64,000 nt of DNA, from IMG/VR virus record IMGVR_UViG_2595698868_000001, positions 192,001 to 256,000 of that record; one strand, given 5' to 3'. Shown in pieces: positions 49,352-57,104 of the stretch; the stretch's first letter is position 1; each line of letters begins with the position of its first letter. Source of the stretch: a virus. Taxonomy: Duplodnaviria; Caudoviricetes. The notes under the pieces are model-generated. The model was not told the DNA's origin. It saw nothing but the letters and a program-made list of their open reading frames with translations, and ran no database searches. Both the position numbers and the translations under genes were made by a program.

Positions 49352-49385
49352 GTCGACGAAAAAAGTTCAAGAATCCTGTCATCAA

Positions 49386-49420
49386 GAGTTGACGGACGGC
49401 AGGGAGGCCAATAGATAGAC
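49386..49420 (+). promoter_or_regulatory. class B promoter driving the tRNA-like RNA pair
   Basis: GAGTTGACGGACGGC with an AT-rich -10-like ATAGAT ~40 nt upstream of RNA 1. Confidence 0.65.
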
Positions 49421-49460
49421 ATCAAGCGCGGCGGAGAAATCCTAAGCGTCGATGAGAGAT

Positions 49461-49736
49461 CGGAGGGTAGCTCAGCGGGTAGAGCACCAGGGCCGCACAA
49501 TCATCGGGTGAGACCAAGTTAGGTGACGCGGATGGCACATTCTTCAGTGCCGGAAACCGAGCCAAGCAAGGTTGGAAGTCCCTTTAGCGAGGGATGGACT
49601 TGGACGAAGATGAATACTGGCGAGGCGGTACGGGATAGGCCATTCCGGAAACCAGACTAGGAAAGTCGACGAAAGATCATTCGGTGCGCGGATGAAGACC
49701 TGGGTGTCGGGGGTTCGAATCCTTCCCCTCTGACCA
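49461..49736 (+). ncRNA. tRNA-like RNA 1 with a 200-nt insert in the anticodon loop
   Basis: Acceptor CGGAGGG/CCCTCTG+ACCA; D arm GCTC/GAGC; anticodon stem CCAGG (49487-91)/CCTGG (49699-703); T arm GGGGG-TTCGAAT-CCTTC; 207 nt between the stem strands. Confidence 0.85.
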
Positions 49737-49748
49737 TCTCTCGAATAA

Positions 49749-49997
49749 CGGTGTGTAGCTCAGGTGGTAGAGCGCCAGGGCCGGGATTACTGTGATGCTG
49801 CGGAACGAAGCCGACGCCGGGGTCGCTACTCGGAAGACGCTGGACTGAAGCAACGATGAGCTAGCGGATTACACGGCTCAGCGCGATGGCTAACTTCGGC
49901 CATAAGCGGGTGCTGAAGAAACGCTGGCAAGAGTCGGGGATCACAGCCTGGATGAAGACCTGGAGGTCGGGCGTTCGACTCGCGCCCACACCGACCA
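49749..49997 (+). ncRNA. tRNA-like RNA 2 with a 172-nt insert in the anticodon loop
   Basis: Acceptor CGGTGTG/CACACCG+ACCA; D arm GCTC/GAGC; CCAGG (49775-79)/CCTGG (49959-63); T loop TTCGACT; 179 nt between the stem strands. Confidence 0.85.
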
Positions 49998-50025
49998 TTC
50001 CCTTTCACAGCACAGGAGGCCTCTC

Positions 50026-50571
50026 ATGACGATCACGATTGAGGCCTCGCTGCTGGCCAACGAAACCCCCTCGCAATTGGTCGGGCATATGCTCGATCTC
50101 GCTGACGTACGTCCTGGGCACTCGGTCCTGGAGCCCAGCGCGGGCGACGGCCGTCTCGCGTTCGAGGCCGTGGCCCGAGGCGCCGATGTCACCGCAATCG
50201 AACTGAACCAGCGCTGCTGCGAGAGCATCGCCAAGCAGCGTGACATGTACGGTCTTCCGAAGTCCGTCCTGGCAGTGCGCCGCTCCGACTTCCTGATGAC
50301 GCCGGTGACGACGTTGTACGATCGCGTGGTCATGAACCCTCCGCGCGCCAATGTTCCGCACGTGACGCACGCCTACAGCTTCCTGAAGCCGGGCGGCCGA
50401 CTGGTCGCGTTGATCCACCGTGAGCATGCCCAGGCGATCATCGTTCATCTGGGTGTTGTCGGTGATGCGGAATACTCGCTCACGACCCTGCCGGCCGGCA
50501 TGTTCCATTTCGACGGCAAGCCGATCGAAGCCGCGCTCATCACGCTGTGGAAGCCGCATGAAGCTGCCTAG
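50026..50571 (+). CDS. SAM-dependent (N6-adenine-type) methyltransferase
   Basis: TP..LV..M, VLEPSAGDG, AIELN, YDRVVMNPP, LKPGGRLV. Confidence 0.85.
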   Translation: MTITIEASLLANETPSQLVGHMLDLADVRPGHSVLEPSAGDGRLAFEAVARGADVTAIELNQRCCESIAKQRDMYGLPKSVLAVRRSDFLMTPVTTLYDRVVMNPPRANVPHVTHAYSFLKPGGRLVALIHREHAQAIIVHLGVVGDAEYSLTTLPAGMFHFDGKPIEAALITLWKPHEAA

Positions 50572-51046
50572 CCTGATCTGGCGCCGGCCCGGCGGCCTGG
50601 AGGAGTGTCCGTACTTCCGCTTGACCAAGCTGGACTTCGGCCCCTTCTCGATCCGCGCCCACGAGTGGAACGGCGACGACGATCACCGCGCCTATCACGA
50701 TCACCCGAACTGGTTCATCACCTTAGTGCTGAAAGGTGGCTACACCGACGAGAGTCCGGACATGCGCCCTGAGGTGATCGAACGGCTTGGCGAGCCGGGC
50801 AAGGTCTATGACGTGCTTCGCGCAGGCTCGATCCGGTACCGCCGTGCCGACTTCGCCCACAAGGTCATCAATGTCAAGCCGGGCACGGTCACGCTGCTGA
50901 TCGCCGGCCGACCGTCGCGGCGTTGGGGCTTCTGGATCAAAGGCAAGCTGATCAAGCGCGATCGCTACTTCATTGAGCAGGGCCACCACGGCTGCACGCC
51001 CGACGCGGCTCCGATCCGCAGACGTCCCGACGGTTCCCGGCTATGA
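50558..51046 (+). CDS. cupin-fold protein
   Basis: DDHRAYHDHPNWFITLVLKGGY...H.V...WGF. Confidence 0.75.
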   Translation: MKLPSLIWRRPGGLEECPYFRLTKLDFGPFSIRAHEWNGDDDHRAYHDHPNWFITLVLKGGYTDESPDMRPEVIERLGEPGKVYDVLRAGSIRYRRADFAHKVINVKPGTVTLLIAGRPSRRWGFWIKGKLIKRDRYFIEQGHHGCTPDAAPIRRRPDGSRL

Positions 51047-57028: not shown

Positions 57029-57104
57029 TGGCGATCCCTACTGGACTCGAACCAGTACCCGCCCTTTAGAAGAGGGCTGCCCTCTCCAGTTGGACCAAGG
57101 GACC
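57029..57104 (-). tRNA. tRNA-Arg (anticodon TCT)
   Basis: Reverse complement: GGTCCCT/AGGGATC acceptor, GCCCT-CTTCTAA-AGGGC anticodon arm, ACTGG-TTCGAGT-CCAGT T arm, encoded CCA; 76 nt. Confidence 0.92.

What the first reader, a model, noticed from the sequence alone, without database searches (positions are those of the whole stretch)
49461..49997. Tandem 'tRNA-scaffolded' RNAs: complete tRNA bodies carrying unrelated 200- and 172-nt structured cargo in the anticodon loop
Seen: both RNAs have a 7-bp acceptor stem, encoded CCA, D arm, 5-bp anticodon stem (CCAGG/CCTGG) and T arm. Between the anticodon-stem strands lie 207 and 179 nt instead of 7. The inserts look unrelated in sequence, but each folds back on itself (CGCAC/GTGCG in RNA 1; CCGGG/CCTGG and CTGTGAT/ATCACAG in RNA 2) and contains several hairpins. 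They lie 12 nt apart behind one promoter. Established: bacterial tRNA group I introns insert after a U in the anticodon loop and have a conserved P7 core; tmRNA lacks a D stem; engineered tRNA scaffolds use this same architecture to get RNase P processing and stability. Inference: this is a natural tRNA-scaffold system that matures and protects functional RNA domains (decoys for anticodon nucleases, protein sponges, guides, ribosome modulators), or a new class of tRNA intron.
Basis: partly seen in the sequence, partly recalled or inferred. Interest (0 to 1): 0.92.

Follow-up and report, generated by a model that had tools for sequence, protein, structure and literature searches.

The report
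Tandem interrupted tRNA-Phe-like phage RNAs
A giant Caulobacter phage carries two neighbouring, unannotated RNA genes, each a complete phenylalanine-tRNA shape split in its anticodon arm by a large folded insert of no recognised intron class, and the same design recurs in phages of related bacteria, so its role can be tested at the bench.

Summary
Window 49461-49736 and 49749-49997 are two complete tRNA-Phe(GAA) cloverleaves with C1-G72, A73 and an encoded CCA. Each is opened between nt 31 and 32 by an insert of 200 or 172 nt (ARAGORN intron mode).

Compensatory changes in CcrPW and in a third relative support the tRNA stems and several insert hairpins.

New here: the design is a family. Brevundimonas phage Bajun has the same tandem pair and Rhizobium phage RHph_Y1_11 has one copy. 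Each sits directly upstream of a homologue of the same small methyltransferase.

Shared across the five RNAs:
- the insertion site
- GAA at positions 34-36, although U33 is not conserved
- in 4 of 5, a conserved hairpin loop (CUUCA type) complementary to the displaced anticodon

No known intron class fits. Rfam, a purpose-built tRNA-group-I model and a profile all fail. Group-I-like motifs in insert 1 are only a lead.

Contigs from RNA-type libraries bridge the junction between insert 1 and the 3' part, unspliced.

Best reading (0.45): stable, non-decoding tRNA-scaffolded RNAs that clamp their own anticodon. Main rival (0.3): an unclassified intron.

Earlier notes of this scan describe similar split tRNA-Phe genes on other phage DNA.

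The parts
49389..49417 (+). Promoter-like element TTGACG - 17 nt - TAGATA, upstream of both RNAs
   Evidence: Read. It is identical in CcrPW. Bajun has TTGACG-17-TACATA upstream of its pair. The consensus scan did not call it. Inferred, not shown.
49461..49736 (+). RNA 1: tRNA-Phe(GAA)-type cloverleaf with a 200-nt insert
   Evidence: ARAGORN intron mode. Compensatory change at acceptor pair 4-69 in CcrPW and in X1. The orthologue in Bajun is L148:883-1156.
49492..49691 (+). Insert 1 (200 nt), 97.0% identical to CcrPW
   Evidence: 194 of 200 positions are identical, against 87.2% in the leader and 78.0% in insert 2. No Rfam family matches at E<=10.
49534..49551 (+). Hairpin GGCAC-AUUCUUCA-GUGCC. 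Its loop (49539-49546) is complementary to U33-A38 of the displaced anticodon loop (6 pairs).
   Evidence: Read. In Bajun the stem is fully replaced (CUGG/CCGG) while the loop UUCUUCA is kept. It is the best duplex partner of AUGAAGA within the insert: -5.8 kcal/mol, reached by 9 of 500 shuffles. The pairing itself is inferred.
49557..49567 (+). CCGAGCCAAGC, identical to the P4'-P6 block of tRNA group I introns
   Evidence: A pattern built on this block found real group I introns. nhmmer E = 0.029, and this block is the only match. Bajun has AUCCCGAGC at the equivalent place.
49578..49595 (+). Hairpin GUCCCU-UUAGCG-AGGGAU
   Evidence: In the X1 contig, 49581 C>T pairs with 49592 G>A, 49583 T>C pairs with 49590 A>G, and 49595 T>C turns G.U into G-C.
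49617..49648 (+). Candidate helix CUGG (49617-49620) / CCGG (49645-49648) enclosing GGGAUAGG (49632-49639). This resembles P7 with J8/7 of group I introns.
   Evidence: The helix is AGGG/CCCU in Bajun, with two pairs changed on both sides, and CUGG/CCGG in RHph_Y1_11. These are my reading of the sequences. RNAalifold prefers a different partner for 49618-49621, so the helix is tentative.
49692..49698 (+). AUGAAGA: the complete 7-nt anticodon-loop sequence of RNA 1, left as a 3'-side bulge
   Evidence: The same 7-mer is the anticodon loop of an uninterrupted phage tRNA-Phe in L192.
49737..49748 (+). 12-nt spacer
   Evidence: 12 of 12 positions are identical in CcrPW.
49749..49997 (+). RNA 2: tRNA-Phe(GAA)-type cloverleaf with a 172-nt insert
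   Evidence: 8 pairs change on both sides against CcrPW. Against Bajun L148:1180-1439, 6 of 7 acceptor pairs and pair 27-43 change on both sides.
49780..49951 (+). Insert 2 (172 nt): closing helix CCGGG/CCUGG, bulge AUUA, helix CUGUGAU/AUCACAG, then a long arm
   Evidence: The second helix is CUAUGGU/ACCAUAG in CcrPW. No Rfam family matches at E<=10 when the insert is searched alone.
49886..49903 (+). Apical hairpin AUGGCU-AACUUC-GGCCAU. The loop CUUC(G) is complementary to (U)GAAG of the anticodon loop.
   Evidence: The stem covaries in CcrPW (GCAGCU/GGUUGC) with the loop unchanged. Bajun has GCGGC-CCACUUCA-GCCGC. Best duplex -3.9 kcal/mol, reached by 66 of 500 shuffles.
49952..49958 (+). AUGAAGA: displaced anticodon-loop sequence of RNA 2
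50026..50571 (+). Methyltransferase gene (181 aa) that follows the RNAs in all three phage lineages
   Evidence: Weak matches only. Pfam Cons_hypoth95 3e-7. PHROGs 'DNA methyltransferase' families. NCBIfam RsmD 8.5e-7, far below its cut-off, and PDB Dim1/KsgA 9.7e-5. Homologues follow the RNAs in Bajun and RHph_Y1_11.

Best explanation
These are two co-transcribed, non-coding RNA genes of a conserved phage family.

Each RNA keeps a full tRNA-Phe-type body: C1-G72, A73, encoded CCA, and canonical D and T arms. That body should give it tRNA-like end processing and stability (inferred).

The anticodon arm is opened between nt 31 and 32. One unpaired purine follows, and then a helix that carries a 172-200-nt folded domain. 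All seven anticodon-loop bases remain as a one-sided bulge.

An apical loop of the inserted domain carries a phenylalanine-codon mimic (CUUCA type). It pairs with the bulged GAAG. The molecule therefore holds its own anticodon and does not decode (inferred).

The product that matters is the full-length chimeric RNA, not a spliced tRNA. Its most likely job is to act as a tRNA-Phe look-alike that occupies a protein which reads tRNA-Phe. Candidates are a host anticodon nuclease, the synthetase, or the methyltransferase encoded next door. In that case it would work together with that methyltransferase as part of an early counter-defence or takeover module (speculative).

Shown: the anatomy, conservation and covariation, the family, and the absence of any known intron signature.
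Inferred: end processing, the loop-anticodon pairing, and non-decoding.
Speculative: the target.
For: (1) Both cloverleaves are complete and their stems covary.

(2) The tandem of a type-1 and a type-2 RNA is kept in Colossus-type phages and in Bajun, whose portal is 47% identical. One copy stands in RHph_Y1_11. A selfish intron would be expected to show presence/absence instead.

(3) Across the 5 RNAs:
- GAA at 34-36 and A38 are kept in 5 of 5.
- Position 33 is U, U, U, A, C. U33 is recalled as near-universal in decoding tRNAs.

(4) In 4 of 5 RNAs the best partner of the anticodon loop inside the insert is a hairpin loop. That loop keeps its sequence while its stem is replaced. Shuffles reaching the observed energy: 9, 66, 43 and 23 of 500.

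(5) Insert 1 is 97.0% identical to CcrPW, against 87.2% for the leader. This implies purifying selection on the insert itself.

(6) No intron class fits:
- Rfam at E<=10 gives none at the locus or for RF00028 over the genome.
- The tRNA-group-I model R1 gives 7.5 bits, E about 0.1, on RNA 1 and nothing on RNA 2, Bajun or RHph.
- The base before every insert is G or A, not U.

(7) Contigs bridge the insert-1/3'-part junction (49691|49692):
- A 217-nt contig (depth 70.6) of run X6, on record as METAGENOMIC RNA-Seq cDNA, has 45 letters on the 3' side.
- 256-nt contigs of X2 and X3 have 36 letters on the 3' side.
- No joint was reported in any of the 4 runs laid.
Against: - The exons would make a clean tRNA-Phe. 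Their loop AUGAAGA and their C1-G72/A73 ends occur in uninterrupted phage tRNA-Phe genes: 5 of 5 new loci, with AUGAAGA in 1 of them.
- This phage has no other tRNA-Phe among its 28 tRNAs. phiCbK and CcrSC each have an ordinary one.
- Every insert ends in G, and insert 1 carries group-I-like blocks.
- The phage encodes RtcB and an Rnl2-type ligase.
- The RNA status of X2 is a guess and X3 is of unknown kind. X2 and X3 may be one data set filed twice. Contigs cannot show that a spliced form is absent. Ordinary RNA-seq captures mature tRNAs poorly (recalled).
- The loop-anticodon pairing fails in RHph_Y1_11 (461 of 500 shuffles as good). The four positive cases are two pairs of orthologues, not four independent cases.
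- No target, no aminoacylation data and no phenotype exist.
Confidence: 0.45

Rival explanations
1. These are true introns of an unclassified kind. One possibility is a much reduced, rearranged group-I-like ribozyme. Another is an insert cut out by proteins and resealed by the phage RtcB or Rnl2-type ligase. In both cases the insert is removed and yields the phage's only tRNA-Phe. The codon-like loop would be the counterpart of the P10 pairing that aligns the 3' exon.
For: - The exons form a canonical tRNA-Phe. Uninterrupted phage tRNA-Phe genes have the same loop and the same C1-G72/A73.
- The phage has no other tRNA-Phe, while relatives have one.
- The inserts end in G.
- Insert 1 carries CCGAGCCAAGC, GGGAUAGG and AGACUAG. 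A pattern made from its motifs retrieved 15 loci. By my reading 11 of them are group I introns. 7 pass Rfam's cut-off and 10 lie in tRNA genes. Two of those lie in tRNA-Phe(GAA), and there the intron's 5' end pairs with GAAAA of the 3' exon.
- RtcB and an Rnl2-type ligase are encoded.
- Lak megaphage tRNAs, among them tRNA-Phe(GAA), were reported to hold 'enigmatic introns' (10.1101/356790, passages read).
Against: - No U precedes the insert, no internal guide or P1 can be drawn, and there is no room for P8.
- RF00028 gives nothing at E<=10. R1 gives 7.5 bits, E about 0.1, on RNA 1 and nothing on the other four RNAs. The profile search matches one 11-mer only.
- The colinear block test is positive for insert 1 only (2 of 1000 shuffles). 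It is partly circular, because the introns were fished with motifs of insert 1. The others gave 162, 404, 772 and 856 of 1000.
- AGACUAG is not kept in the Bajun orthologue.
- A33 in Bajun RNA A and C33 in RHph would give abnormal tRNAs.
- RtcB does not track the split genes. It is present in phiCbK, which has an intact tRNA-Phe, and absent from RHph_Y1_11, which has a split one.
- The tandem of two different inserts is conserved, which selfish introns do not explain.
Confidence: 0.3
2. They act mainly in cis, as a processed 5' leader of the methyltransferase operon. The tRNA shapes would attract RNase P and 3'-end enzymes. That sets the 5' end, stability or translation of the downstream message. 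The inserts would only tune folding.
For: - The RNA(s) stand directly upstream of homologous methyltransferase genes in 3 of 3 alphaproteobacterial phage lineages: 29 nt, 44 nt and 0 nt away.
- No terminator lies between RNA 2 and the gene.
- A self-complementary GAGGCCUC pair (50016-50023 / 50041-50048) can enclose the ribosome site and start codon.
- In RHph_Y1_11 the annotated methyltransferase ORF starts with a strong AGGAGG site 10 nt before the RNA and reads through it.
Against: - 79 of 80 IMG/VR loci with homologues of the methyltransferase, and RHph_TM3_3_3, have no such RNA. The enzyme therefore does not need it.
- A simple processing signal would not need 172-200-nt domains conserved at 97%, a kept GAA, or a codon-like loop.
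Confidence: 0.12
3. They are decaying tRNA pseudogenes that happened to take up insertions.
For: RNA 2 has a G.G mismatch and an extra base in its T arm. Bajun RNA A has an A.C at pair 31-39.
Against: Compensatory changes occur throughout. Insert 1 is 97% conserved. The same architecture appears in three phage lineages.
Confidence: 0.03

Closest known systems
Group I introns in bacterial tRNA anticodon loops (IC3 type), including the tRNA-Phe(GAA) introns found here in loci L144 and L146
   Same: A structured RNA of about 150-250 nt inside a tRNA anticodon loop. It ends in G. A segment pairs with the anticodon side of the 3' exon. Insert 1 shares CCGAGCCAAGC and a GGGAUAG block with these introns.
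   Different: The insert follows G31 rather than a U. No P1/guide, P2 or P8 is present, and the motif order is partly non-canonical. It is not detected by RF00028, by a model built from 9 such introns, or by a profile. It sits in a phage tRNA gene. A 2014 review stated that all phage group I introns then known were in protein genes (PMC3984707, passage read).
'Enigmatic introns' in tRNAs of Lak megaphages (Devoto et al., preprint 10.1101/356790)
   Same: Phage tRNA genes, among them tRNA-Phe(GAA), hold highly conserved inserts that fit no intron class. Their removal has not been shown.
   Different: These are gut Prevotella phages. The sequences are in a supplementary table that I could not open, so no comparison was possible. 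No tandem pair, methyltransferase linkage or codon-like loop is described in the passages I read.
Y-RNA-like YrlA RNAs (Rfam RF02553), also encoded by this phage next to its Ro60 gene
   Same: A tRNA mimic fused to a second structured module, encoded by phages. There is a weak YrlA match across the RNA 1/RNA 2 boundary (25.3 bits).
   Different: The topology is opposite. In YrlA the acceptor-like stem is closed and the ends lie at the Ro-binding stem. Here the acceptor is open with CCA and the extra domain hangs from the anticodon arm. The score is far below the 69-bit cut-off. The phage's own YrlA-like modules lie elsewhere.
tmRNA
   Same: A tRNA-like end with CCA plus a large internal domain.
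   Different: Here a full D arm and anticodon stem are present. ARAGORN finds no tmRNA. There is no G3.U70 pair.
T-box specifier-anticodon pairing and engineered tRNA scaffolds (both recalled, not tested)
   Same: T-box: a codon presented in an RNA loop pairs with a tRNA anticodon. Scaffolds: cargo is placed in the anticodon arm so that the tRNA body gives processing and stability.
   Different: In a T-box the pairing is between two molecules. The scaffolds are man-made. Neither is a family to which this RNA could belong.

Membership tests
Group I intron (Rfam RF00028; IC3 tRNA introns) | Score at or above the family's gathering cut-off | tested here: not met
   No RF00028 match even at E<=10 at the locus (751 nt; insert 2 alone) or over the whole phage genome.
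Group I intron (Rfam RF00028; IC3 tRNA introns) | Conserved core P3-P4-P6 / P7-P3-P8 recognised by a subgroup-specific covariance model | tested here: not met
   Model R1, built from 9 tRNA group I introns, gives 7.5 bits, E about 0.1, on RNA 1. Only the GGGAUAG region aligns. There are no hits in the Bajun or RHph RNAs.
Group I intron (Rfam RF00028; IC3 tRNA introns) | 5' splice site after a U that pairs with G of an internal guide (P1) | tested here: not met
   The base before the insert is G, G, A, G, G in the five RNAs. No guide complementary to the 5' exon lies at the insert's 5' end.
Group I intron (Rfam RF00028; IC3 tRNA introns) | Terminal G of the intron | tested here: met
   In 4 of 5 RNAs the last insert base is G. 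Bajun RNA A, by my placement of its boundary, ends in A. This G is also drawn into the closing helix.
Group I intron (Rfam RF00028; IC3 tRNA introns) | Signature sequence blocks (P4'-P6, J6/7-P7, J8/7-P7') | tested here: inconclusive
   Insert 1: 11-mer identity (nhmmer E 0.029) and 31 of 42 block positions, reached by 2 of 1000 shuffles. That test is partly circular. The other four inserts are not above shuffles.
Group I intron (Rfam RF00028; IC3 tRNA introns) | Self-splicing | not testable with these tools
   Needs an in vitro transcript with GTP/Mg2+, or junction reads from infected cells.
Decoding elongator tRNA-Phe | Cloverleaf with conserved tertiary bases, A73 and CCA | tested here: met
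   U8, A14, G18G19, G53, UUCG/A T loop and C61 are present in RNA 1. RNA 2 has a T-arm irregularity.
Decoding elongator tRNA-Phe | Closed 7-nt anticodon loop with U33 | tested here: not met
   The loop is open on its 5' side in the gene. U33 is replaced by A in Bajun RNA A and by C in RHph_Y1_11. Whether splicing closes the loop is unknown.
YrlA / bacterial Y RNA (RF02553) | Gathering score, and a closed acceptor-like hairpin between the T and D arms | tested here: not met
   25.3 bits against a 69-bit cut-off. The match joins the 3' half of RNA 1 to the 5' half of RNA 2, whose acceptor strands pair in cis with their own partners.
tmRNA | Detected by ARAGORN or Rfam tmRNA models | tested here: not met
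   ARAGORN finds no tmRNA. There is only a 10-bit partial beta_tmRNA match on the T arm.

The most novel reading that the evidence does not exclude
A natural class of tRNA-scaffolded RNAs. Phages of alphaproteobacteria make stable, CCA-ended and perhaps phenylalanine-charged chimeras. In each, a ribozyme-derived domain grown out of the anticodon arm clamps the molecule's own anticodon with a codon mimic. Type-1 and type-2 RNAs would work as a pair, together with the neighbouring methyltransferase, to disarm or hijack a host factor that reads tRNA-Phe.
Probability: 0.3. Interest if true: 0.9.

Novelty: new variant of a known kind. Interest (0 to 1): 0.72.

Why it matters
Bacterial and phage tRNA genes are normally uninterrupted. 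The only established bacterial tRNA introns are self-splicing group I introns, and a 2014 review knew of none in phage tRNA genes. This case is a conserved, unannotated pair of interrupted tRNA-Phe genes in cultured, genetically tractable phage-host systems (CcrColossus and CcrPW on Caulobacter CB15, and Bajun on Brevundimonas).

If the RNAs are spliced, this is a new splicing route for bacterial viruses. If they are not, it is a natural counterpart of the engineered tRNA scaffold, with a built-in codon-anticodon clamp. That would be a new kind of phage non-coding RNA.

In both cases the question that Lak-phage 'enigmatic introns' left open becomes directly testable.

Tried and rejected
- **Known RNA families.** Rfam at gathering level finds only tRNA-Arg at 57032-57104 in the window. 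At E<=10 the locus gives only chance-level snoRNA hits and a weak YrlA hit. RNase P came to mind because AGGAAAGUC and AGAUGAAU are recalled RNase P motifs, but RF00010 finds nothing in the genome at E<=10.
- **Other ribozyme or splicing motifs.** I read the sequence for hammerhead, kink-turn and archaeal bulge-helix-bulge arrangements. None fits. This was reading only, with no tool.
- **Folding energy.** z = 0.00 for RNA 1 and -0.81 for RNA 2, which is uninformative.
- **Antisense targets in the phage genome.** Nothing beyond 10-13-nt words. The best match is a 16-nt same-sense match of insert 2.
- **Relatives by DNA similarity.**
  - Only CcrPW in 'phages'.
  - Nothing but tRNA arms in Marchewka, Domovoi, Kikimora, phiCbK and CcrSC.
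  - The Bajun and RHph loci match only themselves.
- **Whole Marchewka genome.** 23 tRNAs, none of them Phe. The 9 'intron' calls include chimeras of adjacent tRNAs, and the cloverleaves I read were poor.
- **Synteny probes.** The upstream ORF and the portal as single queries found only CcrPW in IMG/VR.
- **Collection scans with window-derived patterns.**
  - Junction plus T arm: only CcrPW.
  - A 24-mer of insert 1: 0 in genome contigs, 0 in metagenome contigs, CcrPW only in viral contigs.
  - GATGAAGACCTG...GTTCGA: 40 loci. The 39 new ones have no tRNA by ARAGORN, so they are chance matches, probably in coding DNA.
  - GGATAGG...GAAGACC...GTTCGAA: 16 metagenome loci with 0 tRNA, all chance; viral contigs gave CcrPW only.
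- **Ligase co-occurrence.** RtcB or Rnl2-type ligase does not track the split genes.
- **Methyltransferase substrate.** DNA or RNA could not be decided. PHROGs says DNA methyltransferase, while NCBIfam and PDB give weak rRNA-methyltransferase matches, all far below cut-offs.
- **Read laying.**
  - X2, X3 and X6 gave no cover outside RNA 1. A part without cover proves nothing.
  - The X6 contig ends at 49736, the CCA end. X2 and X3 end at 49727. The tool's 'two studies stop at one place' hint is therefore not met.
  - The X2/X3 contigs have only 15 letters left of the 5' junction, so they do not count as bridging it.
- **Secondary structure of insert 1.** It is not settled. The 5' end GCCG(C) can pair with the 3' tail, with 49618-49621, or with 49625-49629 (my reading). 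Two lineages are not enough to choose.
- **Literature searches.** Five searches found no description of these RNAs. Gill et al. 2012 (PMC3556154, passages read) report that Rfam found only tRNAs in Colossus. Supplementary tables (Devoto Table S6, Gill Table S6) were not seen and may bear on this.
Full report
**What the window is.** The window is bases 192001-256000 of a 279,967-bp virus record. That length and its 28 ordinary tRNAs match what Gill et al. 2012 give for Caulobacter phage Colossus (PMC3556154, passages read). The nearest named relative is CcrPW, genus Colossusvirus. It is 91% identical over 49380-50030, and the stretch is unannotated intergenic DNA there.

Reading the sequence gives two cloverleaves, at 49461-49736 and 49749-49997.
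- Each has a 7-bp acceptor stem starting C1-G72, then A73 and an encoded CCA.
- Each has a GCUC/GAGC D arm, the same anticodon stem CCAGG/CCUGG, a 5-nt variable loop and a T arm.
- Default ARAGORN and Rfam at gathering level miss them.
- All seven anticodon-loop bases (AUGAAGA) lie on the 3' side of the insert.
- RNA 2 has an extra base and a G.G mismatch in the T arm.
- All three reading frames of both RNAs hold stops.

**Selection on structure.**
- Against CcrPW, the RNA 1 acceptor pair 4-69 changes from A-U to C-G. In RNA 2, 8 predicted pairs change on both sides, among them CUGUGAU/AUCACAG to CUAUGGU/ACCAUAG.
- A 45-kb DNA contig of run X1, a third relative, shows two fully compensatory changes and one G.U-to-G-C change in hairpin 49578-49595.
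- Insert 1 is 97.0% identical to CcrPW, insert 2 is 78.0% and the leader is 87.2%. Insert 1 is thus constrained in sequence, and insert 2 mostly in structure.

**No known class fits.**
- Rfam at E<=10 gives no group I, group II, RNase P or ribozyme match at the locus or on insert 2 alone.
- RF00028 and RF00010 find nothing in the whole genome.
- The only notable hit is YrlA at 25.3 bits against a 69-bit cut-off. It spans the 3' half of RNA 1 and the 5' half of RNA 2, and reflects the T and D arms.

**A group I lead, followed and weighed.** Insert 1 holds CCGAGCCAAGC, GAUGAA and AGACUAG in an order I remembered from tRNA group I introns.
- A pattern made only of these window motifs found 15 loci in 596 Gb of genomes.
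- RF00028 passes its cut-off in 7 of the 15. ARAGORN finds intron-holding tRNA genes in 10 of the 15. By reading, 11 of the 15 share the full conserved core, and 4 (L138, L140, L143, L145) are chance matches.
- Two of them (L144, L146) are tRNA-Phe(GAA) genes with 247/248-nt group I introns. By the group I U/G rule I place these after U33; ARAGORN's own call, one base later, gives the same mature tRNA. The intron's 5' end pairs with GAAAA of the 3' exon.
- Such introns therefore exist in tRNA-Phe and share motifs with insert 1.
- The formal tests fail. A covariance model from 9 of these introns gives 7.5 bits, E about 0.1, on RNA 1, and only the GGGAUAG region aligns. It gives nothing on the relatives described below.
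- A profile search matches only the 11-mer, E 0.029.
- A colinear four-block count is above shuffles for insert 1 only (31 of 42; 2 of 1000 shuffles). It is partly circular, because the introns were fished with motifs of insert 1. The other inserts give 162, 404, 772 and 856 of 1000.
- AGACUAG is not kept in the Bajun orthologue.
- No insert follows a U, none has a guide sequence at its 5' end, and there is no room for P8.
- I therefore treat group I ancestry of insert 1 as a lead, not a finding, and membership as not met.

**The family.** Notes from earlier windows of this scan (e1-5343997, e1-5811963, e1-5828774) mention split tRNA-Phe genes next to methyltransferase or HNH genes, with relatives in Caulobacter, Brevundimonas and Rhizobium phages. 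I tested this.
- tblastn with the methyltransferase that follows RNA 2 (50026-50571) finds its closest homologues outside Colossus-type phages in Brevundimonas phage Bajun (41%) and Rhizobium phage RHph_Y1_11 (37%).
- In Bajun a 700-nt unannotated gap before the gene holds two tandem split tRNA-like genes, L148:883-1156 and L148:1180-1439.
- In RHph_Y1_11 one such gene, L149:1274-1501, ends where the protein match begins.
- RHph_TM3_3_3 has none. Of 80 IMG/VR loci with homologues, only CcrPW has them.

**Shared features of the five RNAs.**
- C1-G72, A73 and CCA in 5 of 5.
- A covarying 5-bp anticodon stem: CCAGG/CCUGG, ACAGG/CCUGU, CCGAG/CUCGG. Bajun RNA A has an A.C at pair 31-39.
- The insert at 31/32. 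In 4 of 5 it begins with one unpaired purine and a helix that starts CC and ends GG.
- GAA at 34-36 and A38 in 5 of 5, but position 33 is U, U, U, A, C.
- Bajun RNA A aligns with RNA 1 along its length and Bajun RNA B with RNA 2. In RNAalifold's consensus, 15 and 22 predicted pairs change on both sides. For RNA 2 against Bajun B, 6 of 7 acceptor pairs do.
- The type-1/type-2 tandem therefore predates the split of these phages, whose portal proteins are 47% identical.

**A codon-like loop.**
- In RNA 1 the hairpin GGCAC-AUUCUUCA-GUGCC (49534-49551) presents UCUUCA, a perfect complement of U33-A38.
- In Bajun RNA A the stem is replaced (CUGG/CCGG) and the loop UUCUUCA is kept.
- In RNA 2 the apical loop AACUUC (49892-49897) and in Bajun RNA B the loop CCACUUCA present CUUC(A/G). 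Again the stems covary and the loops are kept.
- RNAduplex picks exactly these loops as the best partner of the 7-nt anticodon sequence in 4 of 5 RNAs. Shuffles reach the observed energy in 9, 66, 43 and 23 of 500.
- RHph_Y1_11 fails this test (461 of 500), although it holds AAACUUCA.
- The four positives are two orthologous pairs, so this is suggestive, not proof. The pairing would resemble P10 of the real tRNA-Phe introns, or a T-box specifier (recalled).

**Is it spliced?** The data here cannot settle it.

For splicing:
- The exons make a clean tRNA-Phe.
- The same loop AUGAAGA and the same C1-G72/A73 occur in uninterrupted tRNA-Phe genes of other large phages. That holds for 5 of 5 new loci, with AUGAAGA in L192.
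- This phage has no other tRNA-Phe, while phiCbK and CcrSC have one in their main cluster.
- The phage encodes RtcB and an Rnl2-type ligase.

Against splicing:
- No ribozyme signature is found.
- A33 or C33 occurs in two family members.
- The tandem of two different inserts is conserved.
- RtcB does not track the split genes.

From public runs:
- A 217-nt contig of X6 (library on record as METAGENOMIC RNA-Seq cDNA, depth 70.6) lies on 49520-49736.
- 256-nt contigs of X2 and X3 lie on 49477-49727. The kind of these runs is guessed or unknown, and they may be one data set filed twice.
- All bridge the insert/3'-part junction with at least 36 letters on each side. No joint was reported in the 4 runs.
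- So the unspliced form exists in these libraries. Contigs cannot show that a spliced form is absent.

**Context.**
- A promoter-like TTGACG-17-TAGATA lies at 49389-49417. A like element stands before the Bajun pair.
- No terminator separates RNA 2 from the methyltransferase gene.
- The substrate of the enzyme is open. PHROGs families say 'DNA methyltransferase'. There are weak matches to RsmD, KsgA/Dim1 and Erm, all far below cut-offs.

**Verdict.** This is a real, conserved and undescribed pair of structured RNA genes.
- Best reading (0.45): stable, end-matured, non-decoding tRNA-Phe mimics whose inserted domain clamps the anticodon. They would act on a factor that reads tRNA-Phe, possibly together with the neighbouring methyltransferase.
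- Main rival (0.3): an unclassified intron, either a reduced group-I-like ribozyme or removed by proteins, that supplies the phage's tRNA-Phe.
- Minor rivals: a cis-acting leader of the methyltransferase operon (0.12) and pseudogenes (0.03).
- Nearest in print: the 'enigmatic introns' of Lak megaphage tRNAs (10.1101/356790, passages read). A 2014 review (PMC3984707, passage read) knew of no group I intron in a phage tRNA gene. My five literature searches found no description of these RNAs.

Noticed in passing
genome G000:C1 about 107,600-109,450, minus strand (outside the window; locus L088): Three tandem YrlA-like tRNA-mimic modules lie next to a TROVE/Ro60 gene. Their E-values are 3.4e-7, 8.6e-4 and 1.3e-3, all below Rfam's cut-off. 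A paper states that Y-RNA-like RNAs and Ro60 were already reported for CcrColossus (PMC12135203, passage read).
   Followed up: partly
genome G000:C1:168272-169417 (-) and 136474-137052 (-), outside the window: The phage encodes an RtcB RNA ligase (E 2.5e-125) and an Rnl2-type RNA ligase family protein (E 1.9e-20). The control genome of Caulobacter vibrioides did not ring for RtcB.
   Followed up: partly
window 50014-50048: The self-complementary octamer GAGGCCTC occurs twice (50016-50023 and 50041-50048). The two copies can form a hairpin that encloses the AGGAGG ribosome site and the ATG (50026) of the methyltransferase gene. Rfam's SNORD125 'hit' at 50009-50054 is this hairpin.
   Followed up: no
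L149:1264-1983 (Rhizobium phage RHph_Y1_11): The annotated methyltransferase ORF starts at an ATG with a strong AGGAGG site 10 nt before the tRNA-like gene. It reads in frame, without a stop, through all 228 nt of the RNA. No alternative start with a ribosome site is evident nearer the conserved domain.
   Followed up: partly
L144:3328-3647 and L146:92-412: Nearly identical 247/248-nt group I introns sit in identical tRNA-Phe(GAA) genes of a Falkowbacteria genome and a gammaproteobacterial MAG. This suggests recent transfer or a shared mobile or phage origin.
   Followed up: no
L190-L194 (IMG/VR contigs of 21-365 kb): These contigs hold uninterrupted phage tRNA-Phe(GAA) genes with a C1-G72 first pair, A73 and G37. 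These features are unusual for bacterial tRNA-Phe as I recall it. The 'proline-type acceptor end' noted by first readers is therefore a feature of a phage tRNA-Phe type.
   Followed up: partly
window 50558-51046: The gene overlapping the end of the methyltransferase gene matches a PHROG annotated as cysteine dioxygenase (4.7e-46). It is annotated as such in one CcrPW record.
   Followed up: no
window 57029-57104 (-): This tRNA-Arg(TCT) is the only ordinary tRNA in the window. It lies far from the phage's main tRNA clusters at genome positions 59-69 kb and 132-134 kb.
   Followed up: no
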